From Microbotryum violaceum (lineage: Eukaryota), in assembly GCA_001244265.2 (NCBI GenBank), contig CDLV01000004.1, positions 2,046,001 to 2,110,000 on the forward strand: DNA of 64,000 nucleotides. The letters are read 5' to 3'. This document shows, in pieces, positions 1,133 to 38,545 of this stretch. A model generated the notes under the pieces. That model saw only the letters and a list, made by a program, of their open reading frames with translations. It made no database searches and was not told the DNA's origin. The translations under genes and the position numbers were made by a program. Position 1 is the first letter of the stretch; each line of letters starts with the position of its first letter.

Positions 1133-1759
1133 TTGGCATTCCGCAACCTCCCTGAGACCACCAAGACATCAGACCAGTATGACTTCCTTTGCAATTGGTC
1201 CAAGATCCAAGAAAAGATCAAAGAGGTCTACGGGGACGCCAACAAAAAGGAACATGCTCATCAACAACTCCACATGATGCGTCAACAAAACTCGGTCACC
1301 AACTACTCCTCCAAATTCCAACGTCTGGCAACCATTGCCGAGGTCTCCAATGACCGCTCGCTTTTCTGGCTCTATCGCCGAGGACTCAACGCCAGGATCC
1401 GCGCCGTCATCATAGTACTACGGCCTCAACCCAAAAACCTCGATGAATTAATCAAGAAGGCGAATCGAATCGATTTGGACCTTCAAAACAAAGCCATCAA
1501 TACCGGTGCCTATCTACCTCACTGCATGGCAAGTGGGTATTCACCCAATGATTTTGCCACCTCACAATTGGCTGTTCCACTGGACGGTGGAGGACCGCGA
1601 CCCATGGATCTTGACGCCAACCGTCGCCGAATCCAAGTCAACAATACCAACGTTCGTCGAGGACCCCTGTCTGAGAACGAGAAAGAACGCCGCTGTGCAA
1701 ACAATCTCTGCCTCTACTGCGGCCGCGCCGGACATCTCTTCGCAAACTGCCGTGCTTGA
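1133..1759 (+). CDS. gag: Retrotransposon Gag (5'-truncated) with CCHC zinc knuckle
   Basis: Major-homology-like MRQQNSVTNYSSKF, PMDLD, CX2CX4HX4C. Confidence 0.85.
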   Translation: MAFRNLPETTKTSDQYDFLCNWSKIQEKIKEVYGDANKKEHAHQQLHMMRQQNSVTNYSSKFQRLATIAEVSNDRSLFWLYRRGLNARIRAVIIVLRPQPKNLDELIKKANRIDLDLQNKAINTGAYLPHCMASGYSPNDFATSQLAVPLDGGGPRPMDLDANRRRIQVNNTNVRRGPLSENEKERRCANNLCLYCGRAGHLFANCRA

Positions 1760-2277
1760 CCCCAGCAGTCAGCCACACCTTCACGCAACTCCTACCCCCG
1801 GTCGACCAACGAACGTTATAACAACGCTGGACAATACAGGTCCAACAACTACGACCACAAGAGGAGTGCTGCGGTGTCTTTCCGCCTCACTGGCCCCAGT
1901 GCCTCCGTGCTTGGCAGCCATCAACCAAAAAACTCCCGAGCCCAGAATGCTTAGTAGGTGCTTTCCAGGGCGACTCCTCCGACCTTCTCTCGACTTCCAA
2001 CTGTACAACACCGGACTCAGCACTTTCGCACGACATACACACCTCCAAAGAAACAAAAACAACTATCAGCAGCCTCCTTGAGAATATTCAAGACTCAACA
2101 TAAACATCCCAAAATCACCCTCAAGAAACAATTACAACACCCTTACCTCCTATCGTTTTAGAAACTCAACACACAAAAACACCACAAATCCTCCAGACGA
2201 CACGAAAAACAACACAAAACAACCTCCAAAAATCCATAATTTTTTCGCCAGTCCAAGGATTCCCAGTACCAAAACAC

Positions 2278-3162
2278 GTGTGCACAAACTCCATTGTCTC
2301 CCCAGAATTTGACTCCACGGAACACCTCATTGTACAAGCACAACTTTCGACTACCCTTGTGGACAAACTCACCTACGCCATGATCGACTCGGGCTCTCAA
2401 CTCAACCTTATCTCGCGCGACTATGTCAATTCACTGCGCATCCCTCAAGTCACTATCCCGGATGGGCACATTTTCAAAGCTTTTGACGGACACCTTGCCC
2501 GCCCCATTGCACACCAAACAGCCCTCATTGACCTCAACATTGGCGATCACCACAAAGAGATTCAATTCAACATCTCAACTATCGCGTATTACCCAATCAT
2601 CCTGGGCATCCCGTGGCTCAAACTTCAGGACCCCTCAATTTCATGGTCCAAACACATTGTACGCTTTGACTCTGATCACTGCTCAAAATCTTGTCTCGCA
2701 GTCACGCCAATGGTGCACACATTGCCGCGACATCCAATCTATGGCGACTTTTCAACAACACCAAGTACACCCCTCGATGTTTCCGGCATCCAGCACCCCG
2801 AGCAATTGGACGATGCAATCAAAGTTTTGGCCACAACCGAATTTGCAAACCTCTTGCAGACCGACGATCTGATCTCCGTCGGATACATCACGCCGATGAC
2901 CTCTGCACCTATCATGTGCGCCATGACTAAATTTCCACACGTACAGAGCTCCGACGCCACTCCCGACGCCACCACCAAAGATCCTCGGGCCCTTGTGCCA
3001 CCTCAATACCGCGATTAACTTGACGTCTTCGACAAAAAGGAGGCAGACAAGCTGCCGCCACGTCGTCCGTATGATCACTCCATTCCGCTGGACCCTTCCA
3101 TCAAAATCCCTGCAGGTCATCTATATCCTTTGAACGAATCAGAACTCAAAACCCTTGCCGAT
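2278..3162 (+). pseudogene. pol: Gypsy pol fragment (protease and RT N-terminus), in-frame TAA at 3016-3018, cut by Copia LTR
   Basis: DSG protease motif and ILGIPWL; the frame continues past the stop into RT-start motifs. Confidence 0.85.
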
Positions 3163-3332
3163 TTTTAGGAACCTGAGGCCCGAGGCACGATGTACGTAAG
3201 CACAAGAGCCGAAGAAGATAGTAAAGATAGTTGGAGAAGAGAGAGAAGCGCTAAGGGCGCGCGCGCGGCTAATATCAACAACTAGATACTAAACTATTCT
3301 AAGTGGGATGAAACAGTAATACCCTTTTGACA
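3163..3332 (-). repeat. Copia 1 3' LTR (170 bp)
   Basis: Direct repeat of 7793..7986, lacking a 24-bp segment between GCGCGC runs. Confidence 0.92.
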
Positions 3333-3345
3333 CCCCCCCGTGCTG

Positions 3346-6300
3346 TCATACCACTGCAACCCGCAAACCCAAGTTTTCCTGATGGAAGAGGAACGGTTTG
3401 GGACCCAAGGCCTTGGTGAAGATGTTGGCAAACATGTCCGCGGTGGCAATATAAACGACGTTGATCTCCTTCTCGGCTACGCATTCGCGGATGTAATGCT
3501 CGGAGATGCGCACGTGACGAGACCCTTGGTGGTTGGTTGGGTGTCGAGCGAGGGCGAGAGATCCTTGGTTGTCGCCGTAGATGACAACAGGGCCCGGGAC
3601 GGGATGACCAAGTTTGGCCAGAAGCTCGCTGAGGTGGATGGCGTCACCACTGGTATACGATAGGGAGAGGTACTCGGCATCGGTGGTAGACTTGGCGACT
3701 CTGTGCTCGCGCTTCGAGCACCAAGCGATGGCACCTCCTGAGTAGATGAACGCGTAACCCATGGTCGAACGCGAGGTGGTCAAACAGGCGCCCCAATTTG
3801 CGTCCGAGTAGCCATGGAGTGGTTGGCTGGTCTTGCGATAGGTGAGACCCAAGCCCAGCGTGCCTTTGATGTAACGGAGGACCTGCTTGATGGCTGTCCA
3901 ATGCTCCGGGCCAGGCTGCTGGGAGAAGCGAGCGAGGTAGCTGACCATGAAGGCGAGGTCCGGACGAGTTCCTACTGCTGCGTACATCAACAAACCGATG
4001 GCCTGCAAGTAGCGCGTACGATCCTGAGGAGTGGCCGCCAAATCCTCAAAGTCAAGGACAACAACTGGCTGCATTGGGATACTTGCCGGCTTGGCATTGG
4101 TGAATTGGAACCTGGCAAGGATGTCCCGAAGGTAGCGCTCTTGTGAGAGTGTGATAGAACCATCTTGTCCGCGTTTGACTTGGATGCCTAGAATATATTT
4201 GGCAGGTCCGAGGCATTTGATGCCGTATGCGAGTTCCAGCGCATCAAGCACCCGGTCAATTTCGGCGGTTGAGGGACCAACCAAAAGCAGGTCGTTGACG
4301 TACAAGGCAATATAGTGTAAGTGCCCGTTGTGTTTGCGGCAGTAGATACAGATGTCCGACCTGGTGGGGATGTATCCGAGGGACCGCAGAGTAGAGTTGA
4401 TCTTGGTGTTCCAGATGGTGCCGGCCTGGCAAAGGCCGTAGATGGCTTTGGACAGCTTGAGGATCTTGCCGGGCAGGTTGATGCCCTGAGGGATGCGCAT
4501 GTAGAGAGGCTTGTCAAGTTTGCCATGTAAGTACGCCTTATTGACGTCGGCCTGATGGACGTGATAGCCGTTGGCCGCGGCGAGTGCGATGAGGGCTCAA
4601 ATGGACGTGAATTTGACGACAGGGGCGTAGGTCTTCTCGAAGTCAAGGCCAGGGCGTTGGGCACATCTGTGAGCGACAAGTCGGGCCTTGTGATTGGTGA
4701 TGTCACCATGCTGGTTGCGTTTAGTCCGGAACACCCAGCCTGACCGCAGGAGGATCTCACCCGCAGGGAGCTCACAGGATTCGACAATTTGGAAGACCCC
4801 TTAATCATTTAGAAGGGAGTTGAGTTCATCCTGTGCTGGAGCGCCCCAAACGTCCTCTTGTCCCGATCGAATGACGTCGCCCCAATTTGCCGGATCGCGA
4901 ACAACCGACAGGTCATGATCCGCGAAGCCGGCTTTGGTTGATGAGAAGGCAAGGAGCAGACTCTTGAAAGAAGCGGAGGGTCCGTTGGGGTCTTCGACCG
5001 TCTGTTCCCGCGTGATCATGGTGGGAACAGGTTGGCGGCGAGTCCAGGGGCCATCAATGATGTTTTGAGCATCAATTTCACCGTACTTCCCTGGATCAGG
5101 ACCAACCTTGGCAACGTCGCCGTACTCCCAACCCGGCTTGACTTTGGCGAGTGGAGCTGGATCTGGGGGTGGTTGTGGCAGGTTCACGGCTGACTCCATT
5201 GTTGCGCTTGTGGTCGATGAGGCGTCGTTGTTGACGGCAGAGCTGGTCAATGCGGGCGACGCGGGTGCCTTGACAGGCGTTGGGGCCGGTGGCTGTGGGG
5301 GAGGCTCGACAGGCGTTGGAGCTTGGACAGGTGGAAGCAGGGGGCTGTAACCCGGGATGGACGGCTGCGTCGCTCGGGCAGGCGCGATCGCGAAGGGGAA
5401 CTCGGTTTCTACAAACGTCACATTGCGGCCCAGTCTCACACGCATTGAGGAAGGGTCAAGAAGACGGTAGGCTTTCGCGTGTCAATCGTACCCGACGAAG
5501 ACCAGAGGAATCCCTTTTGGATCGAGCTTGTCCCGTCTATGAGCCGGCACGGTGGTCCAAGCGCAACAACCAAATGCCCGAAGACCCCTAATGCCTGGTG
5601 TGTGGCCCGACCATCGACGGTCTGGGACGTCTCCACCAAGAGCCGCGTGGGGCGATAGGTTTTTAACGTGGATGTAACACATAGCCGCCTCATCCCAGCA
5701 CGATCGTGGGAGTCCCGAGTGGGACAGGAGAGAAAGGGTGCCCTCGACAATCGACCGGTTGGCTCGCTCAGCCCATCCGTTTTGCTCAGGCGTGTACGGT
5801 ATGGTCAATTCGCGACAAATTCCGCGTGCCACACAATAGCCGTTGAAAGCAGTAGAGACATACTCGCCACCGTTGTCCGAGCAAAGTGTTTTGACCCTGC
5901 GACCCGTGGCGTTTTCGATCTCCAAGAGCCAATCCTTGAATGTCTGAAAGACCTCGCTCTTGTGCCCGATGGGGTAAACCCAAGTCTTCCTCAAGAAGTC
6001 GTCAATGAATGCGACAAGGTATCGCTTATGGCTTAAGGATTCCTCGGGGAAAGATAAGACGTCCGAGTGCACCAACGCAAGTGGTTCAGCTGCATGCAAC
6101 GACGAAGAGGGGAAAGGCAAACGATAGGCCTTGGAGGCAAGGCAGGCATTGCAAGAGAAGTCTACACTCTCGAAGTCACTATAGGGCCAATCCAAACCCT
6201 CCACCTGGCCGGAGGCCGCCAGTTTTTTGAGTGTCTGGACAGAGGTGTGGCCGTAGCGGCAGTGAAGGGTAAGTAAAGGTAGCCTAGTGGACTTGGTGGA

Positions 6301-7788
6301 GACGAGCAAGGGTAGCGCACCTTTGCTGCCAGCGCGGACTGAAGTGTTGAGTTTGTAAACGCGGGACGCGATGGCTGATGCTGTAGCGAAGCGACCTTGC
6401 GGCGTGCGGAGCTTGACGTGTCCGCATTTGAAGGTGATGCAAACGCCTTTGCGGTCGAAGGCCCGGACCGAGATGAGGTTAGCCGGGCTTTTGGGAGCGT
6501 AGATCACGTTGTTGAGGGTGAACGTGGTACCCATATCGGAGACAAGCTTGATCGAGCCGATTCCCGAGGCCCTCAACGTTCCCCCCAGACCCTGCAGGAC
6601 TTGCTGGGTAGGTGAAAGGGGACCGTCAAAGAAGGACGCATTGTTGACGACGTGGCACGCCGACGCCGAGTCCAGCAGAAGGATGTCAGGTTGTCCGATG
6701 TTGACAAACATGGCAGAAGAAAAGAAGGACATGTCTTGATCCTTGGACGCTTCCGCGGCGGCCACGAGAGTGGTCGTAGTCGATGATGACGCGCCTTGGA
6801 GTGCCTTCATGGCGTTCCTAAGCTCGACGTATTTAGCTCGCTTGCGCGAGTCCGGACACTTGTCGAGCCAGTGTTTGCCTTGACCGCAAGCCGGGCAGTT
6901 GCTCGGGGCAGGACCAGACCGATCCCATTTCCCCTTTTTGCCAGGAGCAGCGCTTGTGGTGGGCGCGACCGCCTTTGCTACGAGGGCCGGGTTCGACTCG
7001 TTGCGCAAAGTCCGAGCGACAGTCTCCATTGATGCGAAGATTTGTTCAACGCGCGGCAGCCTGTTGTCACAAATGTTCATCGCGTAGAACGTTGTGCGCC
7101 ATCCATCGAAAATGTGCGGCAAGTCGTCAAGGGCCCGGGCCGCGATGGCCTGTTCAAGGTCTAGCTGGGCCATTCGAAGGTGGTTGACGAGAACCATGGC
7201 TCGATTTGTCCATGTGTTGAAACCAGCCCAAGTGGGCGGGCATGGTGGCATGCTGAAATAGTCCTTGATAAGTGCCGAGTACGCTTGGGCATCGCTGGGA
7301 GCATAGCGTGCGGCGAGGGCGAGCCAGCATTGGTGCGCCGAGCCGCCCGTCTGAACGATTGGGCCGATGGTGGCCTTCGTGGTGACTGTGAGCAATCCCG
7401 CTAGCGCGCGGGCCGCGTAATCCTCCCAGCGCGAGCGTATGGCGAGAGGCCACGAGGGGTCGCGCGTGCCCTTGCGCAGGTATGCGCAGACTTTGCGGGC
7501 AAAGGTGACCGACATGGTCAGGTCCCAGTCAACGTAGTTGTCCTCCGTGAGTTTCGAGTCGTCGGGGAAGACCGGAGGGTTGGCTGGGGGTAGGAGCTGA
7601 CGCATGGAGAATGCGTCGTCGTCCCGTGCGGGGCGCTGGTTCCTAATCAGCTCGTCGAATTGTTCTTGAGTGAGCGTGACGGAGGTAGTGGGGGCGACGT
7701 CGTTGATTGACGAAGGTGGTGGAGGCATTGTTGCCATGTCACTCTGGACGTCGAGGTCGCCCGCCGCTGATGGGCTAGGTGGGCTCAT
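3346..7788 (-). pseudogene. Copia Gag-Pol polyprotein interrupted by in-frame stops (5482, 4801, 4597)
   Basis: [14 protein letters not shown] knuckle; LLDSASACH protease; HHCC and SDNGGEY/PEQNG.AER integrase; RT YVND (mutated YVDD); RNase H GYSDANWG...AEY...DNQG. Confidence 0.93.
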
Positions 7789-7792
7789 AACC

Positions 7793-7986
7793 TTTTAGGA
7801 ACCTGAGGCCCGAGGCACGATGTACGTAAGCACGAGAGCTGAAGAAGATAGTAAAGATAGTTGGAGAAGAGAGAGAAGCGCTAAGGGCGCGCGCACTTGG
7901 AAGGCTAGAGGCGCGCGCGCGGCTAATATCAACAACTAGATACTAAACTATTCTAAGTGGGATGAAACAGTAATACCCTTTTGACA
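7793..7986 (-). repeat. Copia 1 5' LTR (194 bp)
   Basis: TG...AA termini on the minus strand, directly followed by PBS GGTTATGAGCCC. Confidence 0.92.
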
Positions 7987-9489
7987 ATCGAGAGCGCCAA
8001 AAAAAGTCAACACGATACGGCCAGTCGACGGCTTCTACGCGCACAACGGTGCTCCGAGCCCCGAACCCCGCACGCTGCAACGCTACAAAGTCCAAATCTC
8101 GAAGGCATTCGATCCCAAGCTTGACGCCGAGACGAGAGCCCAGGACCGCACTCGTTTCGGGATCACAGCAATCCCGCTTGCGGCCAGGTCGAGACTCTTC
8201 GACGTTCCCTCCTCGTTCCCCACCGACATCGCCCATCTGTTGGCCACCAACATCCCAACCCTGATGTGGAAGTCGCCAAAAGCTTGGCAGTCCGTACCCA
8301 ACGGGAAAACAATTCTTGCAAAAGTGGGCACTCTGATCGAGGACGCCAAGTGGACGACCCCAAGTGCATTCGGCAGGTATTTTCGCAATCCTCACACCAA
8401 GGCCAACACAAATTACACGATGCACGAATGGATTCAATTTGTATTGAATGTATCCGTCCCCGTCCTCCGCAATGTGGGCACACCGGAACCATACATCGCG
8501 CACTGGGCCGACTTTGTCAGGCTCGTGTTGGATCGGAGCTCCTCCAGCGCCAAGAGGATTGACTTGATTGATCGCCTTGCCAACCGGTTCGTATGCGGAC
8601 AAGAGCGCCTCTTTGTCAAGTACGATTCCGAGAGTATCGAGGCCATGCCTGTTGCTGTCCATCGACTTTGGCATCTTGGAGAATGGCTTCGCATCGTCGG
8701 CAATCTCAGCCTGGTGTGGCAGATGGTACTCGAACGCGTCATAGGCTATGTCAAGAAGCCCCCGATGTCGAACAGCGCCCTGGTCAAGACCTTGGTCAAG
8801 AAGGCGAGTCCCTTCGCGGCGCCTGCTCTGTCCGAGAACGCTCTTGCTGACGGCAACAATCCTCCCTCCTTATCCTGCAGGCGGTTACCAGGCAGCAGAT
8901 GACGTGCTGGGCGATGGCCGATCCGGCGGTGGCAGGGTTGCGGGATGAACTGTTACCAGCGCCATCGCAGCCCAAGACAGGGAACGTTCTGACGGGATTC
9001 TCGCCCGAGAAGACGCGGGCTAGCAAGGACTGGGCAAGCGAGTGTGAAGCATGGCGGAGGTGGGGACAAAACAAAGCGAGTCGCGTGAAGGCCGCAATCG
9101 TCGGCGAGAACGTCGTGCGGTGGGAACATTACGGGCGTGCGGCGATTCCCGGTGGTAAGGGGCAGTACCTCTCGACGACGAGACGCGAGGGCGCGAACCA
9201 CCGAAACCGCAGGCAGGCCTCGCGTTTCTTGACGACCTCGTTCACTTCCTCGGGAACTCGAGCTTCGAAAATGAAGCCGGTCTACACCGTCGGCCGAGCC
9301 ATGGCCATCGTTCGCGTGCCCGACGACGTCGACGTCGGTGAGCTCGGTGAATCGCGCCTCGTCGTCGTCGCCGAGCTGTATCCGCCGGTCCAACGTTTGC
9401 ACAATGCGATGCCGTACGTGCGCATCGAGTCGAATAACCCTGCCGTGCTTCCGTTCGAGGCCGTGGAGAAGCTGCTGGGAGCGTACTAG
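7987..9489 (+). pseudogene. CACTA/EnSpm-like transposase C-terminal fragment
   Basis: ORF 8240..8902 (HEWIQF...VHRLWHLGEWLRIVGNLSLVWQMVLERVIGYVK) resembles the H-x-L-x-H...G-P...W...ER..G motif of fungal Tnp2-type transposases; frameshifted into 8899..9489. Confidence 0.6.
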
Positions 9490-9527
9490 TAGAAGTCAAT
9501 GTGACCGTGCACCAGTCCGCCCGCCAT

Positions 9528-10030
9528 GTTTTTTTTGTTTAACTGGGCTCATAAATTACGATCCTTTGGGTTGGCTAGAATCGCTACAAAAAGAGCTAAA
9601 AGAGGTAATAAAGCAACGACGACAAGCAGCTGGGTGAAATTCAAACCCCTGCGCGCAAAGAGCGCTGCGCAGATCAAAGCCCGCCGAGCACCTAACGCGG
9701 ACTCCAACGGGCGGTGAGTACTGCTTCCGCTTCACGTCCCAAGCGCGGGAGCGAAGATACTCAAAACCAGGCAAGAGCGCCTAGGAAAGAAGGAAGAGAA
9801 TATACAGAAAGTCACAAACGGGAACACCGAGAAAGGAAAATACTAAAACAAGGGGAAAGGAGGGGGAGGAGGGGGGGACACACCCGAGGGACCAAGAAAG
9901 GGGTCGAAGCCAGGGATAGAGGTCCCCAAAGACTAACAGGCCGCAGCCAAGCCCCAGCTACTCGTCACCCCGACAACGCCCGATGGCCCTCCTTGGCTGA
10001 GTCTCGAGTGCTGGCTGTTGAGCCGTCGGA
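9528..10030 (-). mobile_element. Possible 5'-truncated LINE 3' UTR with poly(A) tail
   Basis: Minus-strand pyrimidine-rich tract ending in an A-run at ~9528-9540. Short motifs (CTGG.TTCGA, TTG.TTTATTAC) are shared with the LINE 3' UTR at 21644..22293. Confidence 0.35.
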
Positions 10031-10252
10031 AGTCGGGCAAAAAAAAAACGATCCAATAAAATGAACAAGCCTTCTTCCCGATCCACGCCGTAACGACCAT
10101 TCCATTTGACGAGATCCATCAAGCGGCTTGGAGGGAAAAGGGGAAGGTATCGAAGACTTGAACGTTTGAGTGCGCGCGTCTCTTGCCTTCCCCGCCACGT
10201 TGCGTCGACGTCGTGTAGCGTCTGTACCAAATTGGAAAACAAAAGAAAGGTT

Positions 10253-10324
10253 TGGCTGAACTGAGAATTGAACTCAGGTCCACTCTATTAATCAGAGTTG
10301 CTCTGGCCGCTGAGCTACTCAACC
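10253..10324 (-). tRNA. tRNA-like gene (72 nt) with TTA anticodon and non-canonical anticodon loop; suppressor-like or pseudo-tRNA
   Basis: GGTTGAG TA GCTC AGCGGCCA GAGC A ACTCT GATTAAT AGAGT GGAC CTGAG TTCAATT CTCAG TTCAGCC A. All four stems pair, A and B boxes are present, and T-runs follow downstream. Confidence 0.8.
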
Positions 10325-12488
10325 AGTGGGAATAGATGAATATGACGGTGCACCCGAGTCATACCGGCGGTGGTTCTACCACACAGTCTACAAAAAAAAA
10401 ATAAAAAATGGGACACACCTCTTACTTCACTTCATTTCGAAATCGCCCTACCGCAGTCTTCAATACTCGAGTTAACAAGTGATACACCGACAAGATGTCT
10501 ACAGGAGACCCTGGGTCCCCACCGCCGGCACCGCCGCCACCGGTGTCCGCCACCAGCGTCCAGCCACCCCGCGACCAGATCCCGAAAAGCTCGAAGAAGA
10601 CGCAAGCCACGGGCCCCGCCACCGCCGCACCCAGCTATGCCGCCGCTGCAAATCAGGCGACTCAGTCACCTGAACAACAGCAACAACAAAAACAGCGTGC
10701 CAAGGCTCTGGGCAGCCTCCTACAAGCCATGGGTGCTGTACCCGGAAACCGCATGGATCGTTGGGTCCAGGCCATCTACTTCGCCAAACTCTACCCCGTC
10801 GTCACCGCCACATCGCTGAAATTCTCGGCCTTGAACGCGAACCGGTCTGTCGAGAACATCTTTGATTACGCCCTTGAAGTGACTCTGTCTCACCAGAGCG
10901 CCTCGCAAGCGTCTCATGCCGACAAGACCGATCTCGTGGCCTGCGTCACGAGGCTGTTATCGCCGATCTCTCCTATCTGCTTTGAGCCTGGAGTTCCTCT
11001 GCCGGACCACCTTGCAGCCTATCGACCACAGATCCTAGGCGTACAACATTCATCAATCCTGCGTAATGGGGCGGCTCACCATCGCGTTACGGTTGGGTTC
11101 GTCACCGGCGAGGCACGTGACGCTGCGCTTACGACGCCCCCTGCTCTCACTTGGCGATCGGCGAAGGCCCGCTTCGCGAAATCTCACAGGTTCCACCATA
11201 ACATGGTCGAGCTTCGAATCAACGTCGGTGTTCAAGGAGTGCCTTCCATGGATGCCATCATCAAATCGTTCCAATTACTAGTGCAGGACTTGTCAGGCAA
11301 GGGACATTCGTGCCAACTTGTGCAGGTTCTGCGCATTATCAGCGTGGACAACGCCTCGGCCTTTGCCCACGTTGCCGGAGACTACTCAGCTTTCCTACAC
11401 TTCGATGACGACTCCCTGTTCAAACGCCCTAACACGACCTTGAAAGAGATCCTACCTTCGAGAATCGGCCTTCCCACTCGAGGCATCCCGGTCACCGCCC
11501 TTCGCCATGACTATGAGAAGGAGGCGGCTTGCGGTAGGTGCCACTTCGTTGGTCACGTGGGAACCTGCGGACTGGATCAGGAGAGCAAGCGAAAGGAGGC
11601 TCACAACGGCAACGACAACGGCAACACCAACGCCAACAAGAACACCATCACCAACGACACCAACATTGTGGAGGCCGAGGCCCCCATTCCTGTGCCGGTT
11701 GTTAACAGGATCGCATCACAGAATCGCTTCGCCGGGCTCGAGGTTGAGGAGGGACAGGAGGAAGCGGTAACTGGCCAGAGCGGACAGGGGCCAGAAGAAT
11801 TGGGGGAGGAGGACGCTGGTGATAGGGCGGATGACAAGGACTCGGAGGACTCGGAGATGGAATCAGAGGCGACCGCAAAAACGGAGGTCATCAAACTTAA
11901 GAGCGAGGACGAGTCGGTTTTAGAGGACTGCGGAGGATCCGATGGAGAGGTGATTGATGAGGATGAGGTGATGGCGGATGGAAGGGGCGAAACAGAAGGC
12001 AAGGTGGCGACGGAGATGGAGGAAAGGGAGGTGCCGACGGAGATGGAGGAAGAGGAGGTGCCGACGGAGGTGGACGATGTGGACGAGGCAGGGGGAGCGA
12101 CGAAAGCGGAGAACGCGGAAGCGACGGACTTAGGGGAGACGAACAGGCTGGACAATGACGACGACAGCGACGCAACAGCAACCGCCGCCCCCGCTTCCCG
12201 CGAATCGACACCCCACAAACCAACCCCACCTTTGTCACCCGAAACTCTTGCCAAGTCGCTTCGCGAGGGGGAGGAGTGGGACAGGATCAGAGCTAACTGG
12301 GTTGAGCAGGCACGACTCAAGCGGGACCAAAGCATCGAGAGGAGGCTCGACGCTGAAACCCCTTTGGTGCGTCACAACTTTGCCACGTGGGATGAGGACG
12401 GTGGGATACGTTCCATCAATATCAGGGGGACCGCTTCGAAGTTCAAAAAGCCGGTAATGAAGAGGTCGCAGACTGCGGCGGACCTCAG

Positions 12489-17355
<4,867 letters not shown>

Positions 17356-17642
17356 CTCAGTGACCCGAGTGACGAACCGACCGACGCCAAGCGAGTGATC
17401 ATCAAAGGGAAGAGCCGCGTCGTTGTCAAGGATGGAACAAAGGGGCGGAGGGTGACGAGGTCGATGTCAGCGGCGGCGGCGATGCCGGTTGGCGTGACGA
17501 AAGTGGACCGAGGGAAAGCAAAGGGGGTAGCCGAGGAGAAAAGATGGTCCGACCACGAGCCCGAGGACGATGTCCTGCCCGCCCTCCCCCTCTTTGAGGA
17601 CGTCACCACCGCCAAGAGCGCTTCGACCTCAACTACCCATTA

Positions 17643-20600
17643 ATGATTAAGCACACCATCATTACCTGGAACGTGAGGAGGGGCATGGGGGTCCCGGAGA
17701 AACGACGTGACATTTACAACTACCTATCCCTTTTCAAAGCATCGGCCATTCTCATACAAGAGCACTTCATCAGACCGCACCTCTGGCAACTCATCAAGGA
17801 CGAGTACGAGGGCAAGCTCTTCATCAACCAACATTGTCTGACTCTAATTCCGGCTGACTCCCCCCTGATCGACGCCGAGCTCTTGCGCACCCACTCGGCA
17901 CTCGACGGCCGGCTCCTCGTCACGTCCTTTCGTCTGCGGGGCGACATCAAAATTCTAGAAATCAACAACGTTTACGCGCCCGTTGACCCAAAGCAACGAG
18001 CGAAATTCTTTGACAAACTCTTATTTCACAAAACACAGAAATCCCACCTCCGACTCTTTGGCGGTGATCTCAACGACTGCCCGCGCCCAGAAGTCGATCG
18101 GCGGAACCAAAGTCGGCGCGGCCACCACTGGCCAATCCTGATCGGCAAGCTCGACTCCGCCTACACGGACTGCATCCGCTACAAACACCCCATCACCCCA
18201 TCCTTCACTCGACCTAATACCAATCGCAAGCGACCCAACTCCTTCTCCCGGCTTGACTACTTTCTCCTGCAACGGACACACCAAAAAAGACTCGATCAGG
18301 CCTCGACGATCGACTATCCCAAGGAGCTTTCCGATCACCGACCGGTCTTGATTGTGCTGGCTCTCTCAGGCGATCCTGATGCGACCCTCCCACAGCTCAG
18401 CCTACCTACCACATCAAACCAACTACATCGAATCAACACCACAACCTTTAAGACGGTGGAGTTCCAGCGGATGATGGAAGGATGGTTGGAAGGGGCAAGC
18501 GGGGAGGAACCAGTGGGGAAGCTCGAGGTCATTCTGAAGGCGTGCAGGGATAGCGGTGGGGAGATGGCGAGGAGGTTGCATCGGGAGCGGACGGAACGGA
18601 TGGAGTATTTGGTGGGGAGGGTGCAAGATCTGGAGGCGATACCGGAATGGGGGGAGGCGGAAACGGCAGAATGGACAAGGACGTCCGAGGAACTCAAGCG
18701 GGCGGTCGAGGAGCGCGCGCGCCTACTCCGGATCCGAGCCCACGTCCCGAGATCGCCTCCGAGGAACGACTGTCGCGGCCGGTCCACGCCAAGCTCGCGG
18801 CGCGGAACTCGGACTCAAGATCACAGCACTGCGCTTGAGCAACGGAGAGCTAACGCATGACATTGATGTTGCTCTTGACCACACGCAGGCGCATTTCCAG
18901 CGCCTCTACCACATCGAGCCTCGTGACCCGGACCGCGTCGACCGACTTCAGGACGAATTCCTCGCGCCGATCAGGGCGGCGCGGACTTGCGACGACCCGC
19001 GCTCGGATCCTCTCTTTCTGCGCCGACTCTCGGAATCGCAGATCGACTTACTCCAGCGACCAATCACCGAGGACGAGGTCGTGGCCGCGATCGGGACGAC
19101 GCACCCGGGGCGATCGCCGGGACCGTCGGGCGTGCCCTACAAACTCTACCAGACCGCACCCAAGGCGTGGGCCAAGGTGCTGACCAAGGCCTACAACGCG
19201 ATGATAGAGCGAGGCTCACTCTCTCCCAAGCAGTGCCAAGGACTCGTGCGCCTCATCTTCAAGCGACACAAGAAGAATGCCGATTGCGCCGAACTTTCGT
19301 CGTACCGGCCGATCACCCTGCGCGAGTGCGATTACAAGATCTTTACCAAGGTCTATGTTGCCCGTTTGAACCAGATTCTACCCGATCTCCTCCCGCCGCA
19401 GCAGCACGGATTCGTCAAGGACCGCCGATCGGCTGACGCTGCACTACACCTTCGTCTCCTGATCGAGGAAGTTGGCGCGCGCAGGACCGAGTTCCCCGCG
19501 GCCGCACTCTTATCTCTTGACCAATCGTCCGCCTACGACCTCGTCAAGCATGATTGGATCTTTGCCATCTTTGACACTCTGGGCGCTCCTGCCACCTTTC
19601 TTCGCGTGCTGAAGATGCTCTACTCGGGTGACTCGACCTCGGCCCGCTACATCATCAATGGGTTCTTGACGGCGCCGGTACGACTGACGTGTGGGCTCGG
19701 CCAAGGGGACCCGGCGTCATCGTCGGTCTGGGACATCGTGTTTCAGCCGTTTCTGGATGCTCTACACCGTCGAAACATTGCGCTGAATCTCTCCATACCT
19801 GCACTTCATCCGTACCCACAGAGCCGCGCCATTACATCGCTTGCTTTTGCCGATGACGTTGTCGTCGCCGTCGCGGGCTTGGGGTCACTCAACTTGCTCG
19901 ATGACCTGGCACTCGACTGGAGGCATGCAACGAATGGCCGGCTCAACACGGACAAGACGGTCGTCCTACCGATCGGACGCCGCTGGGACCCGGGGCAACG
20001 CCCGCTCGTCGTCAAGGCCGCAGGCGAGTCGCTCGAGTGGATCGGCCTCACCTTCGACCCGAGCGGCGACACCGAACTCGCCTACGCGAATCTCATCGAA
20101 CGCCTCGAGGCGACGCTGGAAGGGGTTCAGCATCGCTGGCTCACACACCACACCCGTGCCTTTTACGTCAATCGGTACGCCATCCCCAAGATCCTGCACT
20201 TCCTTGCAGCCGACATCCCGCCGCCCGAAGTCGTCAAGAAGCTCGATGACATGCTCGTCGATTTCGTCCGTGGGGGCAAGGGCAGGACCAGCTACGGCAG
20301 AGATATCGTGTTCACAGCCAAGCTAAAGGGGAGACTCGGGGTGATCAGGATGCAGGACGTCGTGGACGCGGTTGCGGCACGGATCTGGGACGTTCTTCTC
20401 GGCGGTTCGGGCGCGATCTGGCAAGGACTTGCGCGCGCGGCACTCCAGCGAGCTCAGTCCGACCTCGACCTGGCCACATCCATCCACTCCCATCCCCAGC
20501 GACCTCCATCCCCGATGGCGAGCAGCATTGGGGGTTCCGAAACAGCAAGACGCGCAGGTCAACCCGAGGACCTTGACCACCGCGAACCTGCTCGCGCTTC

Positions 20601-21643
20601 CCACCTTGCTCGGCAGCCTCCACACCCCCATCAGAGGGAGACAGACCATCGACGCGGTTCATATACCTGACTACCTTCGTCTCCAGGGCTACCCGAAGGT
20701 GGCGGATCTCTACCGGCGCGAGTTGTATGCGGGTGGGGGCTTTCACCTTTGGACGCCGCCTGCGGATGTGCTCGGCGACAACAGCGAGTACGATCGACGC
20801 GGGCTCCCGCAGCGACTGGCACTCGCGGCCTGGTACCGGTTCACTGTCGATCGACACAAGAACACGTCCTTGGCGGTGGCGGTGGCGGCAGGACGGCTCA
20901 ACGTGCCTCCCCGGATTGGCACCAGCGCACCGCTCGAGGCAATTCTCCCCAAGCCCGTGGCCCGCTTCGCAATGGAGCAGCGCCTTCCGGACCCGGTGCT
21001 TCCACAGCAGGCGAGCCAGTACAAGCTGCTGAACATGGCTCGACCGTACACCATCCGTCGCATCCGCCGGGTCCTGAACGCGAAGGCCTTTACCAACACG
21101 CTCGGGCTCAAGGGACCACCGCAGCCAGACGACCTCAGGAGCTTTTGGAAGGCGGTCAACTCGAAGGCACTGACGGCGAGGGAGAGGGAAGTTTGGTTCA
21201 AGCTGATTCTCCGCTTCACCCCGACGCGCAAGCTGCAACACCAACAGAATCACGACACTTCTCCCGCGTGCCTCGTCTGCGAAGCGCCGGTGGACGACAC
21301 CGACCACTACTTTTTTGGCTGCGTTGACTCGCGGAATGTCTGGATCGCGGCAAGGGGCGTGCTCTGCGACGCACTCGGGTGCGACACGATTGAGGACGCC
21401 CAGTACACGACACTGCAACGGCTCTTTGGCCTCCCCAAGCTCAAGGCCAAGCTCAGCGAACAAGAAGGGGCGGGCAGGACGATCGAGATGTTCACGGGGA
21501 TGGTTTTGGAAATGATCAGCAGTGGGAGATGGAGGATGCAGAAGCACGGGACGAGGATGGAAAGCGTGGAGAGGAGGAGAGTGGTACTGGAGGAGAGGAT
21601 GAAGTTGAGGGCGGGAGGAGCAAGGGGCGGGCGAGGGCAGTAG
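17643..21643 (+). CDS. LINE ORF2: AP endonuclease, reverse transcriptase and zinc finger (frameshifts near 18748, 18815, ~20470)
   Basis: ITWNVR, QE, NVYAP, GGDLN, SRLDY, SDH (APE); YRPITL, QHGF, AYD, GLGQGDP, FADD (RT); CLVC...HYFFGC. Confidence 0.93.
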
Positions 21644-22293
21644 AGGCTGGGTTCGATTTCCCCCCACCACACCCCACACACACACACCATCACGCTTCAT
21701 CTTCCAACAAAAAACTGTATACTAAATATCTTGCTTTCATCTTTCATCTATTACAGGTCTGCCTTCGTTGCTCATGGACCGGTTCGCGATTTGAGATTGA
21801 CTCGACGGTGACTCGCGCTCTTTGGCTTCGGGGTTCTGAGTCAAGGGAGGGATCAGCAGACACAGGCAGAAAGTCGGCTTTGAGGGGCCAGGGACTGCTG
21901 AGGTGGAGGTTTTGAGGGGCCTCCACCGCGTCTTGTTGTGACCGAGCATAGACTTAGGACTTCGCGGGTCAGGGTAGTTGCGCAGTCGATCTCCTGTCTT
22001 TGTCTCGACCGAGTTGGGAAGTGACGGCGGGGTGGGCCTCTTGTCGCTTAGTAAATTGTTTTATTACTCCTTTCTCTTTCTCTCTCATTCGTCTCCTGGG
22101 GGGAGCAACCGCTTGGCTGGGGCACTTGAATCCCAAGTATCGGATTGGTGGACACCGGCCCGTTTCTCGCATCTTGCGGGCGGTTTGTGTTATCATCGTC
22201 GACTTCCATCTAGTTCTAGTTTTTCCGTAGGCCAATCAGGGGGAACAGGAATTGGGGGCAATATGATGAACAAGTTCTACAAAAAAAAAAAAA

Positions 22294-22361
22294 CGCCACC
22301 ACCAGACTTAGAGATACTCTAAGCATGATTAGACGAATCTCTAATGGCCCTGGTGGTGGCG
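22294..22361. repeat. Stem-loop (12-bp perfect outer stem plus inner stem) next to the LINE A-run
   Basis: cgccaccaccag...ctggtggtggcg, with inner tagagat/atctcta. Confidence 0.7.
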
Positions 22362-23892: not shown

Positions 23893-23998
23893 GGTGCGCG
23901 GGACGGTGCGATGTCGGCTGGTGAGGCGTGCGAAGGCGGTGCGTGTGTGGGCGTGCTGGGGTTGCTGGGCGTGCTGGGCAGTGCTGGGCTGGGCTGTG

Positions 23999-24199
23999 TG
24001 AAAGGCACGAGACTGCTCTCGAGCCTCACTGATTCCGAGTCCAAACTGAAAGGATCAAACGGTGTAATTCACAGGCGAAGAAAGACTACTAAAAGGACTA
24101 AGGTCAAGAGACGCGGCGGCGCCGCGCGCGAGGGCAAGCGTGAGGCCGCAGAGGTCGGCTCGAGGTCGTTGTGAGGCGTAAGCGGAGCGGCGCCTTACA
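23999..24199 (-). repeat. Solo LTR family B (201 bp) with perfect TSD CTGTG
   Basis: TG...CA termini; CTGTG at 23994-23998 and 24200-24204; near-identical to 29051..29251. Confidence 0.92.
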
Positions 24200-24606: not shown

Positions 24607-25611
24607 GCCGGGTCCCCTTGGCCGAGCCCACACGTCAGTCGCACCGGCGCCATTAGGAACCCATTGATGATGTAGCGGGCCGAGGTCGAGTCACCCGAGT
24701 AGAGCATCCTCAGCACGCGAAGAAAGGTGGCAGGAGCGCCCAGAGCGTTGAAGATGGCAAAGATCCAGTCATGCTCGACGAGGTCGTAGGCGGACGATTG
24801 GTCAAGAGACAAGAGCGCAGCCGCGGGGAACTCGATCCTGCGCGCGCCAACTTCCTCAATCAGGAGACGAAGGTGTAGTGCAGCGTCAGCCGATCGGCGG
24901 TCCTTGACGAATCCGTGCTGCTGCGGCGGGAGGAGATCGGGTAGAATCTGGTTCAAACGGGCAACATAGACCTTGGTAAAGATCTTGTAATCGCACTCGC
25001 GCAGGGTGATCGGCCGGTACGACGAAAGTTCGGCGCAATCGGCATTCTTCTTGTGTCGCTTGAAGATGAGGCGCACGAGTCCTTGGCACTGCTTGGGAGA
25101 GAGTGAGCCTCGCTCTATCATCGCGTTGTAGGCCTTGGTCAGCACCTTGGCCCACGCCTTGGGTGCGGTCTGGTAGAGTTTGTAGGGCACGCCCGACGGT
25201 CCCGGCGATCGCCCCGGGTGCGTCGTCCCGATCGCGGCCACGACCTCGTCCTCGGTGATTGGTCGCTGGAGTAAGTCGATCTGCGATTCCGAGAGTCGGC
25301 GCAGAAAGAGAGGATCCGAGCGCGGGTCGTCGCAAGTCCGCGCCGCCCTGATCGGCGCGAGGAATTCGTCCTGAAGTCGGTCGACGCGGTCCGGGTCACG
25401 AGGCTCGATGTGGTAGAGGCGCTGGAAATGCGCCTGCGTGTGGTCAAGAGCAACATCAATGTCATGCGTTAGCTCTCCGTTGCTCAAGCGCAGTGCTGTG
25501 ATCTTGGAGTCCGAGTTCCGCGCCGCGAGCTTGGTGTGGACCGGCCGCGACAGTCGTTCCTCGGAGGCGATCTCGGGGACGTGGGCTCGGATCCGGAGTA
25601 GGCGTGCGCGC
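24607..25611 (-). mobile_element. Internal fragment of the same LINE family (RT N-terminal half), inverted relative to 18713..19715
   Basis: Near-identical reverse-complement copy; alternative-frame ORF translations are identical. Confidence 0.95.
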
Positions 25612-29006: not shown

Positions 29007-29050
29007 TCCAAGCAAAGGTATGCCAAGTTGTGTAGTGTGGAAGAAAGCGG

Positions 29051-29251
29051 TGAAAGGCACGAGATTGCTCTCGAGCCTCACTGGTTCCGAGTCCAAACTG
29101 AAAGGATCAAACGGTGTAATTCGCAGGCGAAGAAAGACTACTAAAAGGACTAAGGTCAAGAGACGCGGCGGCGCCGCGCGCGAGGGCAAGCGTGAGGCCG
29201 CAGAGGTCGGCTCGAGGTCGTCGTGAGGCGTAAGCGGAGCGGCGCCTTACA
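29051..29251 (-). repeat. Solo LTR family B (201 bp)
   Basis: Copy of 23999..24199; flanks AGCGG/GGCGG (5-bp TSD with one mismatch). Confidence 0.9.
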
Positions 29252-33880: not shown

Positions 33881-34300
33881 GATTGGGTGAAAAGGAGTCC
33901 ACTTTGTACCTAGTATCACCATTACAAGAGCATACCAATATATGGACCCGTTGTCTATTAAATTTCTTGAGCCCCAGCTTTCGGGGTATGCTACGAGGCA
34001 ATTGCGGTAAAATCTTGCTGCTCACATCATGCCTGACTAGAAGTTGTACCTGCGAGAGACGCTTTTCGCTGATGTAGCTCGGTTTTACCAGTCGAATTTC
34101 GGTGACATGGAAACAAAAATCCGGAACACGAGTCACCCCGAGCAAAAGCTGTGCAGTGAGCGATCGTCGCGAGACTGCTGGGTGGAGCTCCCCTTGCCTT
34201 CTAACCCCATCCTCCCCATCCCGACCACCCCGACTGGACCGCTTTCCAGCGGAGAAAGCTTGCGCCGCTCCTCTCTTCTGCGAACCAAACGCGACAAACG

Positions 34301-35675
34301 ATGCGAGTCGCTCGAACGCTGCTGCAACAGCGACAGCACGGCTCCCCCTTGGCATATGCGACGCAGCTGGTGCGCAAGGCGGACCTCGACTCGCTGTGGT
34401 CGGTGCTCGCGTACCCCCAGAGCGTGCGGCCGGCGTATCTGTGTCTGCGCGCCTTCAACGTCGAGCTTGCGACGATCGACGACCAGGTCTCGAATCCAAT
34501 CGTAGGCAGGATGAGGTATCAGTGGTGGAGGGACACGATCAAGCAGACCTTCGAGGTCAGTTCGACTCGTGATCCGATACGATGCGATGCGATGCGATGC
34601 GTGGATGCTGCGAAGGCGCGATCACGGCGTCAGCGTCAGTAGGGTCGATCACTTATCTGCACCCCTTCACCGATAGCATCGACCACCCAACCATCCCATC
34701 GCCCAGCTATTGCATTCACTGCCCCAGTTCGACCAGCTGTCGGCGTATCACTTGCTACGCATCATCAACGCGCGCGAGCAGCACTTTCTCAACCCCCACT
34801 TCCACTCGCTCCAGGACCTCGCAGAGTACTCGGCCTCGACCCAGTCCTCGTTGCTGTACCTTCTCCTCCAAGCCACGGCCACATCCACAAGCTCAACCCA
34901 TCCCTCTTCACCAGGCGCTTTGTCGACGGGGAAGCGACACGAGAAGCTGTTTGAGCACGTCGGCTATGAACACGACCATGACCACGACCCCACTTCTTCC
35001 TCCGCTCGGACGTCATCCGGCACGAGTACGAAACAGGTCGACGACTTGACCTTGGACCATGCAGCGAGTCACATTGCCGTGACGAACACCATCGCTACTT
35101 TACTCCGGTCGATCCCACACCATGCGCAAAAGAGAATAAATGTCATTCCCACCGAGATTGGTCAGTCGATGAAGAAAGGAGTGCCCACCGTTCGTGACAT
35201 GGACTTCCGCCATTAGTCTGACCGCTCTCATTTCGTGATCCCCTCAGCCTCGAGATACGATGTCAAAGAAGAAGCTCTATTTCGGCAAGGCCCCTCCACA
35301 CCGGGGTTGAAAGAAGCCGTCGCGACCATGGTCGGAATCGCTTATGCCGAGCTGAGGACCGCGAGGAGTTGTTTCAACGACACAACTGGAATACCCAAAA
35401 GGGCCAGACCTGTATTCCTGTCTCTTGTAAGTGCTAACTCGTAGAACGCAACAGATGTATCCCGTGCACCGATGATACGCTGCATCGGCGTGCCCGCGTG
35501 CTGATCTTCTCGCTGTCTTGAAATTTCACACCAGACTCCCGCACGCTCGTGGCTCGATCGACTTGCCAAGGAAGATGGTGACAAAGCCTTTGAGGTCTTC
35601 AATCCTCGCCTCTTGCGCACAGATTGGAAGCTACCTGTCCAAATCTGGCGAGATTCGAGGAGGGCCCTTTTCTGA
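34301..35675 (+). CDS. NDUFAF6: NDUFAF6-like complex I assembly factor (squalene/phytoene synthase fold), multi-exon
   Basis: LRAFNVELA..D.VS....GRMRYQWWRD, HPT, LAEYSASTQSSLLYL, HAASHI...TLLRSIPHH; GT-AG introns. Confidence 0.85.
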
Positions 35676-38221: not shown

Positions 38222-38545
38222 GAGCGTGGATTTCGAGCCTGTGGGCCTTTCGATCTTTTTTTATTTCTAATTTGATAGACTTCATTAACAGCATAATTAT
38301 ATTAATACCTAGGAATCTTCGGAAAAGTCGGAGGGAATGCTGTTACGCACGCTGGCAGGAGCCAGTAGTGTAGGACTCATTGACCCTGAACCAGGATCAA
38401 TCGGGGCCAGTCTCGAGAAAGCCGGGTTAGGTGGTAGCTCAATTGCGCATTAGGCGCAGCTCCGTCGGCGCTCACTTCCAATTAACCCAAGTCTCGACAG
38501 GTCCTAAGCTCAACTAAGCCCTCCCTCTGGGAGGGGCTTAGGACT

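What the first reader, a model, noticed from the sequence alone, without database searches (positions are those of the whole stretch)
10253..10324. Complete tRNA cloverleaf with a TTA (ochre-suppressor) anticodon inside a TE nest
All stems pair, A/B boxes and downstream T-runs are intact, and the central loop triplet is TTA (10291-10289), complementary to UAA. Positions 32-33 are G-A instead of the near-invariant Y-U, so decoding may be poor. It may instead be a TE-borne Pol III module, insulator or primer. Intact pairing amid mutated TEs suggests selection or recent mobility.
Basis: partly seen in the sequence, partly recalled or inferred. Interest (0 to 1): 0.7.

Follow-up and report, generated by a model that had tools for sequence, protein, structure and literature searches.

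The report
Multi-copy tRNA-like repeat, not a suppressor
The cloverleaf is real, but it is one copy of a many-copy tRNA-derived repeat tied to transposable elements in an anther-smut fungus (Microbotryum), and its malformed anticodon loop makes a working stop-codon suppressor very unlikely.

Summary
Observation confirmed. A 72-nt cloverleaf lies at 10253-10324 (-). ARAGORN calls it tRNA-Stop(tta). Rfam tRNA scores 47.4 bits, E 4.8e-9, in E-value mode, but gathering mode does not list it. Every stem pairs and the body is canonical. The loop GAUUAAU has G32 and A33 and can close to a 5-nt loop.

The host is a Microbotryum species.

Contigs of four public runs show no sequencing error and no single decayed gene. 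None lists another letter in the loop. The element is covered by 14, 10, 10 and 3 different contigs. Summed depth is roughly 25-30 times single-copy depth. A 4-15x contig carries the loop, the 60-nt upstream leader and 44 further bases. Those bases include the reverse complement of a 22-nt motif that follows a Microbotryum-specific transposon ORF at 9507-9528.

The window's copy is cut 60 nt upstream by a LINE, which itself carries a young Copia. It is not the primer of either Copia.

Best reading: a transposon-associated, tRNA-derived Pol III module that does not decode. It is comparable to SINE heads and Helenus LTRs, but its carrier element is unresolved. Interest is low to moderate.

The parts
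10253..10324 (-). tRNA-like cloverleaf of 72 nt. The body is canonical, with A-box and B-box regions and discriminator A at 10253.
   Evidence: ARAGORN. Rfam RF00005 at 47.4 bits. Fold.
10287..10293 (-). Aberrant anticodon loop GAUUAAU: G32, A33, UUA at 34-36, A37, U38.
   Evidence: Sequence. No alternative letter is listed here in any of the 4 runs laid. The minimum-energy fold closes G32-U38.
10236..10248 (-). T-rich run (TTTCTTTTGTTTT) 4 nt after the discriminator. It is a possible Pol III terminator, and the copies diverge in or just after it.
   Evidence: Sequence. Loose end at 10250 and a 1-nt deletion at 10249 in most contigs.
10325..10385 (-). Upstream 'leader' of about 60 nt, shared with other copies of the family. 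The window departs from the other copies at 10385/10386.
   Evidence: Contigs covering 10266-10385 and 10300-10385 at 4-15 times single-copy depth, with a loose end at 10385 in X1, X2 and X12. Weak similarity of 10332-10360 to 9489-9516 on the same strand; 3 of 500 shuffles score as high.
9507..9528 (+). 22-nt motif GTGCACCAGTCCGCCCGCCATG, 18 nt after the stop codon of a transposon ORF and followed by a T-run. Its reverse complement follows the leader in the other copies of the tRNA-like family.
   Evidence: One exact match in the window, none in 100 shuffles. Loose end at 10385.
7985..9489 (+). Two open frames (7985-8902 and 8851-9489) of a Microbotryum-specific transposon protein, probably tnp2/CACTA-like.
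   Evidence: Only 2 hits, both Microbotryum, at 60% and 54% identity. One of them has a sub-threshold Transposase_21 match, E 0.0041.
10386..12488 (+). 5' part of a LINE that abuts the leader: an A-rich start at 10391-10408 and an ORF1-like frame from 10495.
   Evidence: multi-copy contigs from 10424; junction contig 10299-10492 in X1 and 10331-10465 in X2. That this is a LINE is inferred from the EN/RT frames that follow the Copia insertion.
12489..17355 (-). Copia-type LTR retrotransposon inserted into the LINE. Its LTRs are about 379 nt and near-identical, and the target-site duplication is CTCAG.
17361..21643 (+). Rest of the LINE: endonuclease frame 17643-18860, reverse transcriptase frame 18556-20670, and a further frame to 21643.
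   Evidence: Pfam Exo_endo_phos and RVT_1. Frames.
3163..7986 (-). Second Copia-type element, downstream of the tRNA-like.
   Evidence: LTR pair 3163-3332 / 7793-7986. Pfam RVT_2, rve, Pol_BBD.

Best explanation
The cloverleaf is one copy, truncated on its upstream side, of a dispersed and highly homogeneous tRNA-derived repeat family of Microbotryum. The family keeps a complete tRNA body, including the internal Pol III promoter regions (A and B boxes) and a T-run behind it. Its anticodon loop is malformed (G32, A33, closable to 5 nt), so it does not decode UAA. In other copies, the same 60-nt leader upstream of the tRNA-like runs into a 22-nt motif. In the window, that motif lies just after the stop codon of a Microbotryum-specific transposon ORF. 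The module therefore travels with, or sits at a fixed place beside, that transposon family. In this window the unit was broken 60 nt upstream by a LINE, which was later hit by a Copia element. Shown: the fold, the loop, the many copies, the shared leader, the motif link and the nesting. Inferred: that Pol III transcribes the module, that amplification came through a mobile element, and that the module serves the element (as promoter, 3'-end or chromatin mark) rather than translation.
For: Structure and score. Loop. Multi-copy: position 10306 is covered by 14 (X1), 10 (X2), 10 (X9) and 3 (X12) contigs. Summed word depth over the tRNA part is 13,610-15,836 in X1 against 579 for the unique junction bin, and 2,870-9,624 in X2 against 111-138 for the two unique contigs. 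Same loop in the copies: no alternative letter is listed at 10287-10293 in any of the 4 runs. Within the 72 nt only two variable sites are listed: 10306, where all contigs differ from the window, and 10286, in 2-20% of depth depending on the run, which keeps the 31-39 pair as U-G. A 65-nt contig of X12 covers 10252-10316 with one difference. A 164-nt contig of X2 (depth 1958) covers 10266-10385 plus 44 loose bases. Motif link: the loose end at 10385 (X1, X2, X12) holds the reverse complement of window 9507-9528. Carrier ORF. Runs under three coded organism labels hold the family. Host genus, and hence the standard nuclear code (recalled knowledge): (94% and 85% identity to Microbotryum proteins). 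Precedent: Helenus elements of rust fungi create hundreds of predicted tRNA genes, including all predicted tRNA-Sup-CTA (PMC10886601, passages read).
Against: The copy number rests on summed k-mer depths of short contigs laid at 85% likeness or better. True tRNA genes that share the D or T arm could inflate it; depth is highest over the T arm, at 9,624 in X2. The carrier element and its ends are not defined. The motif link is 22 nt long. Two geometries fit it: the module lies inside the transposon's end region, or a transposon end lies 8 nt beyond the leader. The window's own copy of the motif (9507-9528) is followed by a T-run and no tRNA-like. The published annotation of M. lychnidis-dioicae lists 134 tRNAs and 0 SINE copies (PMC4469406), which sits uneasily with dozens of copies unless they were collapsed or filed under 'Unknown'. 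Kojima reports that the secondary structures of Helenus tRNA-like parts do not support a tRNA function. Here every stem and nearly every tertiary position is intact, which may mean selection for a tRNA-like fold. Only one copy occurs in this TE-rich 64 kb. No transcription data were obtained.
Confidence: 0.7

Rival explanations
1. It is a working ochre-suppressor tRNA, or the tRNA of a UAA reassignment, that inserts an amino acid at UAA.
For: The cloverleaf is complete, with UUA at 34-36 and A37, Pol III box regions and T-runs. The triplet is the same in contigs of four runs.
Against: A33 and G32 replace the near-universal U33 and Y32 (established tRNA knowledge, recalled). G32-U38 can close the loop to 5 nt. 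The host is Microbotryum, which uses the standard code (recalled). Long TE and host frames are open without any recoding: among 28 stop-to-stop frames of 250 aa or more, the stops are 18 TGA, 8 TAG and 2 TAA. Dozens of near-identical copies of an active suppressor would be strongly harmful (inference).
Confidence: 0.03
2. It is a single decayed pseudogene of an ordinary tRNA, mutated in the anticodon loop at this locus.
For: The loop is aberrant. The window's copy carries one private base at 10306. There is only one copy in the window.
Against: Ten or more different contigs per run cover it in three of four runs. All show the same loop, and a contig with loop and leader has 4-15 times single-copy depth. 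All stems are intact.
Confidence: 0.03
3. It is a host Pol III gene family with a non-decoding role (chromatin boundary, integration beacon for retroelements, or source of small RNAs). It was duplicated with its flanks and is not itself part of a mobile element.
For: The tRNA body and box regions are intact and very homogeneous. Retroelements lie on both sides, and the 5' end of a LINE faces the gene 60 nt upstream. That arrangement recalls elements that target tRNA genes (recalled: Dictyostelium TRE5, yeast Ty1/Ty3).
Against: The shared leader continues into a motif found beside a transposon ORF. The one other LINE 5' junction shown (X9, loose end at 10424) has a different upstream sequence, so no LINE targeting is shown. 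The Copia elements sit about 2.2 kb away on either side.
Confidence: 0.12
4. It is the head of a classical tRNA-derived SINE, or a solo LTR of a Helenus-type TRIM.
For: The part is tRNA-derived with box regions. Depth rises towards the 3' end of the tRNA-like in X2, from about 2,100 over the leader to 9,624 over the T arm, as 5'-truncated retrocopies would give. Helenus is known from other Pucciniomycotina.
Against: Copies share 100 nt or more upstream of the tRNA start, which a Pol III retrocopy should lack. The unit ends in a T-run, not a poly(A) or LINE-like tail. No second LTR, PBS or PPT occurs nearby, and no second copy lies in the window. The TG...CA ends tried by eye have no 5-bp duplication. 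Kojima found no Helenus in Microbotryum.
Confidence: 0.1

Closest known systems
Helenus (TRIMp3): non-autonomous LTR retrotransposons with a tRNA-like part in the LTR (Kojima 2024, PMC10886601; passages read)
   Same: Found in Pucciniomycotina fungi. A tRNA-derived part with conserved Pol III box regions is amplified to many copies. tRNA finders call such copies tRNA genes, including suppressor types. Copia elements are nearby.
   Different: No LTR pair, PBS/PPT or 5-bp duplication was found here. The cloverleaf is intact here, whereas Helenus folds are reported as not tRNA-like. The paper reports no Helenus in Microbotryum. The flank links to a DNA-transposon-like ORF, not to a TRIM.
tRNA-derived SINEs (SINE2)
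   Same: A tRNA-related head with A and B box regions, many copies, and no decoding role expected.
   Different: Copies share about 100 nt upstream of the tRNA-like and end at a T-run right after it. No body, tail or target duplications were seen. The M. lychnidis-dioicae annotation lists 0 SINEs.
Natural ochre-suppressor tRNAs (for example yeast SUP alleles) and the UAA-decoding tRNAs of organisms with reassigned stops; recalled, not tested
   Same: UUA at positions 34-36 in a full cloverleaf.
   Different: Those keep U33 and a 7-nt open loop and derive from a recognisable isoacceptor by one base change. This one has G32 and A33, a 4-nt variable loop and many copies.
Retroelements targeted to tRNA genes (Dictyostelium TRE5, yeast Ty1/Ty3); recalled
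   Same: The 5' end of a LINE faces the tRNA-like from 60 nt upstream, and Copia elements are in the neighbourhood.
   Different: One locus only. The other LINE junction seen is not next to this leader. Targeting is not shown.

Membership tests
Functional cytosolic tRNA (suppressor) | Cloverleaf with conserved tertiary nucleotides and a covariance-model score above threshold | tested here: met
   47.4 bits against a gathering score of 29 in E-value mode; ARAGORN. Gathering-mode scans did not list it.
Functional cytosolic tRNA (suppressor) | Seven-nt anticodon loop with pyrimidine 32, U33 and purine 37 | tested here: not met
   G32 and A33; only A37 fits. G32-U38 pairs in the minimum-energy fold.
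Functional cytosolic tRNA (suppressor) | Mature, CCA-tailed, aminoacylated RNA; read-through of UAA | not testable with these tools
   No RNA holder was listed. Contigs cannot show expression.
tRNA-derived SINE | tRNA-related head with A and B box regions | tested here: met
   TAGCTCAGCGG at positions 8-18 and GTTCAATTC at 53-61, read. The consensus boxes are recalled.
tRNA-derived SINE | Unit starts at the Pol III start near the tRNA 5' end; it has a 3' tail and target-site duplications | tested here: not met
   Copies share the 60-nt leader plus 44 further bases upstream. The 3' end is a T-run. No duplications were found.
Helenus / TRIMp3 | tRNA-like part lies inside an LTR, with two LTRs flanking a PBS and PPT, or a solo LTR with TG...CA ends and a 5-bp duplication | tested here: not met
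   No second copy of 9700-10700 in the window. Candidate ends TG at 10385 and CA at 10224-10223 or 10234-10233 have non-matching 5-nt flanks (read). Other copies could not be fetched.
Primer tRNA of the neighbouring LTR elements | PBS next to the 5' LTR is complementary to the tRNA (3' end or anticodon region) | tested here: not met
   Best complementarity is 7 nt (Copia at 12489-17355) and 5 nt (Copia at 3163-7986).
Part of a DNA transposon (tnp2/CACTA-like) of Microbotryum | Fixed position relative to the element's ends in many copies, with terminal inverted repeats and target duplications | tested here: inconclusive
   A 22-nt motif links the leader to the region after the transposon ORF. 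The element's ends are unknown. The Transposase_21 match of the relative is below the cut-off.

The most novel reading that the evidence does not exclude
The tRNA-like is a built-in end module of a Microbotryum-specific DNA transposon family or its short derivatives. It would be a DNA-transposon counterpart of SINE heads and Helenus LTRs, kept as a true tRNA fold because the element uses it. Possible uses are Pol III transcription or TFIIIC binding that shields the element from silencing, or an RNase P/Z cleavage signal that forms the 3' end of the element's transcript.
Probability: 0.2. Interest if true: 0.5.

Novelty: new member of a known kind. Interest (0 to 1): 0.3.

Why it matters
It shows that a 'suppressor tRNA' called by tRNA finders in a fungal repeat region is a repeat-borne tRNA look-alike. 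Such calls should be screened by loop geometry and copy number before anyone claims recoding. If the link to a DNA transposon holds, it would extend small-RNA-gene capture by mobile elements. That capture is known for SINEs, Cassandra and Helenus. The extension would reach a lineage (Microbotryum) where the searched literature reports no SINEs and no Helenus. It would also add tRNA-type Pol III sites to the repeat-rich regions of these genomes.

Tried and rejected
1. Whole genome: none is held for this window, so copies, flanks and duplications could not be collected.

2. Other copies elsewhere: two exact-pattern scans of metagenome contigs gave 0 hits. One pattern was the anticodon arm with the loop left open plus the start of the T arm; the other was the T arm plus the 3' acceptor strand.

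3. Expression: no RNA holder was listed among 24 runs. All four runs laid are contigs, which cannot show expression.

4. The junction bin 10386-10412 has no cover in X9 and X12. No conclusion is drawn from that.

5. The continuation of the family beyond 10385 was sought in the window to see whether the LINE is a simple insertion. A 20-nt piece of the loose end had 0 matches at up to 3 mismatches, and BLAST of 7895-10500 found no second copy. The nest is therefore more rearranged than a single insertion.

6. The primer idea is rejected.

7. The solo-LTR and SINE signatures were not found.

8. Isotype of origin: not resolved, because no reference set of fungal tRNAs was available in the tools, and comparisons from memory are not reported.

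9. Earlier findings of this scan: three look-ups returned nothing.

10. Literature: searches for Microbotryum with SINE/tRNA, tRNA-like, tRNA genes/anticodon, and for 'Sup-TTA' with fungi found no description of this repeat. Supplementary tables of PMC10886601 (Helenus consensus sequences) and of PMC4469406 (TE consensus list) were not seen and might hold a related sequence.

11. The Plastid-ycf2 and cow-rumen-1 matches are far below their thresholds and were dismissed.

Full report
**What is there.** ARAGORN finds exactly one tRNA in the 64-kb window. It lies at 10252-10325 on the minus strand and is called tRNA-Stop with anticodon tta (drawn). Rfam's tRNA model aligns 10324-10253 over its full length at 47.4 bits, E 4.8e-9 for the 601 bases searched, against a gathering score of 29. 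Gathering-mode scans with Rfam's fast filters did not list it, on either the whole window or 8000-12500. I report this as it is; the filters probably dropped it.

Read, the structure is:
- The acceptor stem has 7 of 7 pairs (two are G-U), the D stem 4 of 4, the anticodon stem 5 of 5 and the T stem 5 of 5.
- U8, A14, G18-G19, A21, G53-U54-U55-C56, A58 and C61 are present.
- The variable loop has 4 nt and the discriminator is A.
- T-runs follow at 10248-10236.

The fold energy of the isolated RNA is only modestly better than shuffles (z -2.1). The minimum-energy structure pairs G32 with U38, leaving a 5-nt loop.

**Host.** No genome is held for the window.
- A host Kelch-repeat gene frame at 60197-61681 is 94% identical to a protein of Microbotryum saponariae and 85% identical to one of M. 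intermedium. The next hits, from other Microbotryomycetes, are at 39% or less.
- A transposon frame at 7985-8899 has only two relatives in the protein collection, both from Microbotryum.
- Window GC is 53-60%. The Copia and LINE content matches the published description of M. lychnidis-dioicae: 26.1 Mb, 55.4% GC, Copia-like elements dominant, 134 tRNAs and 0 SINE copies annotated (PMC4469406, passages read).

The window is therefore nuclear DNA of a Microbotryum species, which uses the standard code (recalled knowledge). Long frames in the window are open without any recoding. Among 28 stop-to-stop frames of 250 aa or more, the stops are 18 TGA, 8 TAG and 2 TAA.

**Surroundings.** From left to right the window holds:
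- Gypsy-type gag/protease frames at 1133-3018 (+).
- A Copia element at 3163-7986 (-).
- Two frames of the Microbotryum-specific transposon protein at 7985-9489 (+). One relative has a sub-threshold Transposase_21 match, E 0.0041.
- A 22-nt motif at 9507-9528 followed by a T-run.
- A patchwork of repeats at 9530-10250.
- The tRNA-like at 10253-10324 (-).
- A LINE on the plus strand from about 10386, with an ORF1-like frame from 10495.
- A Copia element at 12489-17355 (-) that splits the LINE. Its LTRs are near-identical (300 nt at 100%; 379 nt aligned) and its target duplication is CTCAG.
- The LINE's endonuclease and reverse-transcriptase frames at 17643-20670, with a further frame to 21643.

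The 'TE nest' is correct, but it contains young elements, not only decayed ones.

**Reads.** One search for public runs gave 24 rows under coded organism labels, and none is on record as RNA. I laid contigs of four runs on 9900-10700: X1 and X2 from organism A, X9 from organism B and X12 from organism C.

1. No alternative letter is listed anywhere in the loop (10287-10293) in any run, so the UUA triplet is not an assembly error.
2. Position 10306 is covered by 14, 10, 10 and 3 different contigs, and all carry A where the window has G. This is a D-loop position, so the window's copy has one private base.
3. The only other variable site listed inside the 72 nt is 10286, in 2-20% of depth depending on the run. 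It keeps the 31-39 pair as U-G.
4. In X2 the two contigs that are unique to this locus (10190-10279 and 10331-10465) have depths 111 and 138, while the bins over the tRNA-like sum to 2,870-9,624. In X1 the unique junction bin has 579 and the tRNA-like bins 8,505-15,836. This suggests roughly 25-30 copies. These are summed k-mer depths of short contigs at 85% likeness or better, and true tRNA genes sharing an arm may add to them, above all over the T arm.
5. A 65-nt contig of X12 covers 10252-10316 with one difference.
6. A 164-nt contig of X2 (depth 1958, about 15 times single copy) covers 10266-10385, which includes the loop and the 60-nt upstream leader, and runs on for 44 bases unlike the window. 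A 121-nt contig of X1 (depth 2486, about 4 times) does the same.
7. Downstream, copies diverge in or just after the T-run: there is a loose end at 10250, and most contigs lack one base at 10249.

**The link to a transposon.** The loose end behind 10385 is the same in X1, X2 and X12. It reads eight bases and then the exact reverse complement of the 22-nt motif that stands at 9507-9528 in the window. That motif has one match in the window and none in 100 shuffles. In the window it begins 18 nt after the stop codon of the transposon frame that ends at 9489.

In the orientation of the tRNA-like, other copies therefore read: motif, 8 nt, 60-nt leader, tRNA-like, T-run. The window's own motif copy is followed directly by a T-run, with no tRNA-like. 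The leader itself shows a weak same-strand resemblance to 9489-9516 (score 30; 3 of 500 shuffles reach it).

Two geometries fit. In one, the tRNA-like module lies within the end region of that transposon family or a derivative of it. In the other, a transposon end lies at a fixed place 68 nt upstream of the tRNA-like within a larger amplified unit. I could not decide between them, because no further copies could be fetched. The window does not hold the continuation, and two metagenome scans gave nothing.

**What it is not.**
- It is not the primer of the two Copia elements. Their PBS regions start GGTTATGAG and match the tRNA-like over at most 7 and 5 nt. That string contains the complement of a CAU anticodon loop. 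Kojima reports that fungal Copia and Helenus elements prime from the anticodon loop of initiator tRNA. I did not test this against an actual initiator tRNA.
- It does not show the marks of a classical SINE, because copies share about 100 nt upstream and end in a T-run.
- It does not show the marks of a Helenus TRIM or solo LTR. There is no LTR pair, PBS or PPT, and the candidate TG...CA ends have no 5-bp duplication.
- It is not a single decayed pseudogene.

**How it most likely works.** The family keeps the parts of a tRNA gene that bind TFIIIC (the A and B box regions, read; the consensus is recalled) and a T-run behind it. Pol III transcription of each copy is therefore plausible but inferred.

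Decoding is very unlikely. U33, which makes the U-turn, is replaced by A. Position 32 is a G that can pair with U38. And many copies of an active UAA suppressor would be harmful in a fungus with the standard code.

The high homogeneity (two variable sites listed in 72 nt) alongside dozens of copies points to recent amplification by a mobile element. Helenus elements of rust fungi give the same picture on a larger scale. They account for nearly all of several over-represented predicted tRNA types and for all predicted tRNA-Sup-CTA (PMC10886601).

Two results count against a purely passive relic. Every stem and nearly every tertiary position is intact, unlike the Helenus tRNA-like parts as Kojima describes them. 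And the published annotation of M. lychnidis-dioicae found 0 SINEs and only 134 tRNAs, so the family must have been collapsed, filed as 'Unknown', or be smaller than my estimate.

**Verdict.** The cloverleaf and its UUA triplet are real. The suppressor reading is not supported. The carrier element and the role of the module remain open.

It is a new member of a known kind: tRNA-derived modules spread by mobile elements and miscalled as suppressor tRNAs. The boldest reading still allowed is a tRNA fold kept as a functional end module of a Microbotryum DNA transposon (probability about 0.2). Interest is 0.3.

Noticed in passing
window 12489-17355 (-): Copia element with near-identical 379-nt LTRs and target duplication CTCAG. 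Its gag-protease-integrase frame (14760-16979) and its reverse-transcriptase frame (12907-14949) overlap by about 190 nt in different frames. This is either a frameshift site or one disabling change in an otherwise young element.
   Followed up: partly
window 22294-22361: A strong 68-nt hairpin with a 12-bp G+C-rich outer stem enclosing further pairing (-38 kcal/mol, z -6.3, 0 of 200 shuffles as good). It starts right after an A13 run at 22281-22293 whose preceding bases (TCTAC) resemble those before the A-run at 10391. It may be a small foldback element or a retroelement 3' end.
   Followed up: partly
window 9927-9980: A short stretch with summed contig depth of 34,000-47,000 in X2, against about 125 for unique sequence, and up to 120,000 in X1. 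This is a very high-copy repeat, with no Rfam family at gathering level.
   Followed up: no
window 7753-7792 and 16938-16977 (-): Both Copia elements carry the same PBS-like start GGTTATGAG(T/C)CCA next to the 5' LTR. It holds the complement of a CAU anticodon loop, which fits priming from the anticodon loop of initiator tRNA as described for fungal Copia and Helenus. It was not tested against a tRNA sequence.
   Followed up: partly
window 10495-12488 (+): The LINE ORF1-like frame (P0001) is rich in acidic low-complexity sequence and has no Pfam match even at E 0.1.
   Followed up: partly
window 18713-19715 and 24607-25611: A second fragment of the same LINE family (98% identical over 1005 nt, opposite strand). 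It lies inside a region flanked by a 202-nt direct repeat pair at 23998-24199 and 29050-29251.
   Followed up: no
window 46286-47371 (-): A frame with a Ulp1-type protease domain (Peptidase_C48, E 6.7e-6), a domain often carried by large DNA transposons (recalled).
   Followed up: no
window 57332-61681 (+): Host Kelch-repeat gene in several frames, hence with introns. It is 94% identical to a 1499-aa Microbotryum saponariae protein, and relatives are named 'negative regulator of mitotic exit'. It marks the edge of the repeat nest.
   Followed up: partly
window 9840-9880: A purine-rich tract of G and A runs sits between the transposon ORF region and the high-copy stretch.
   Followed up: no
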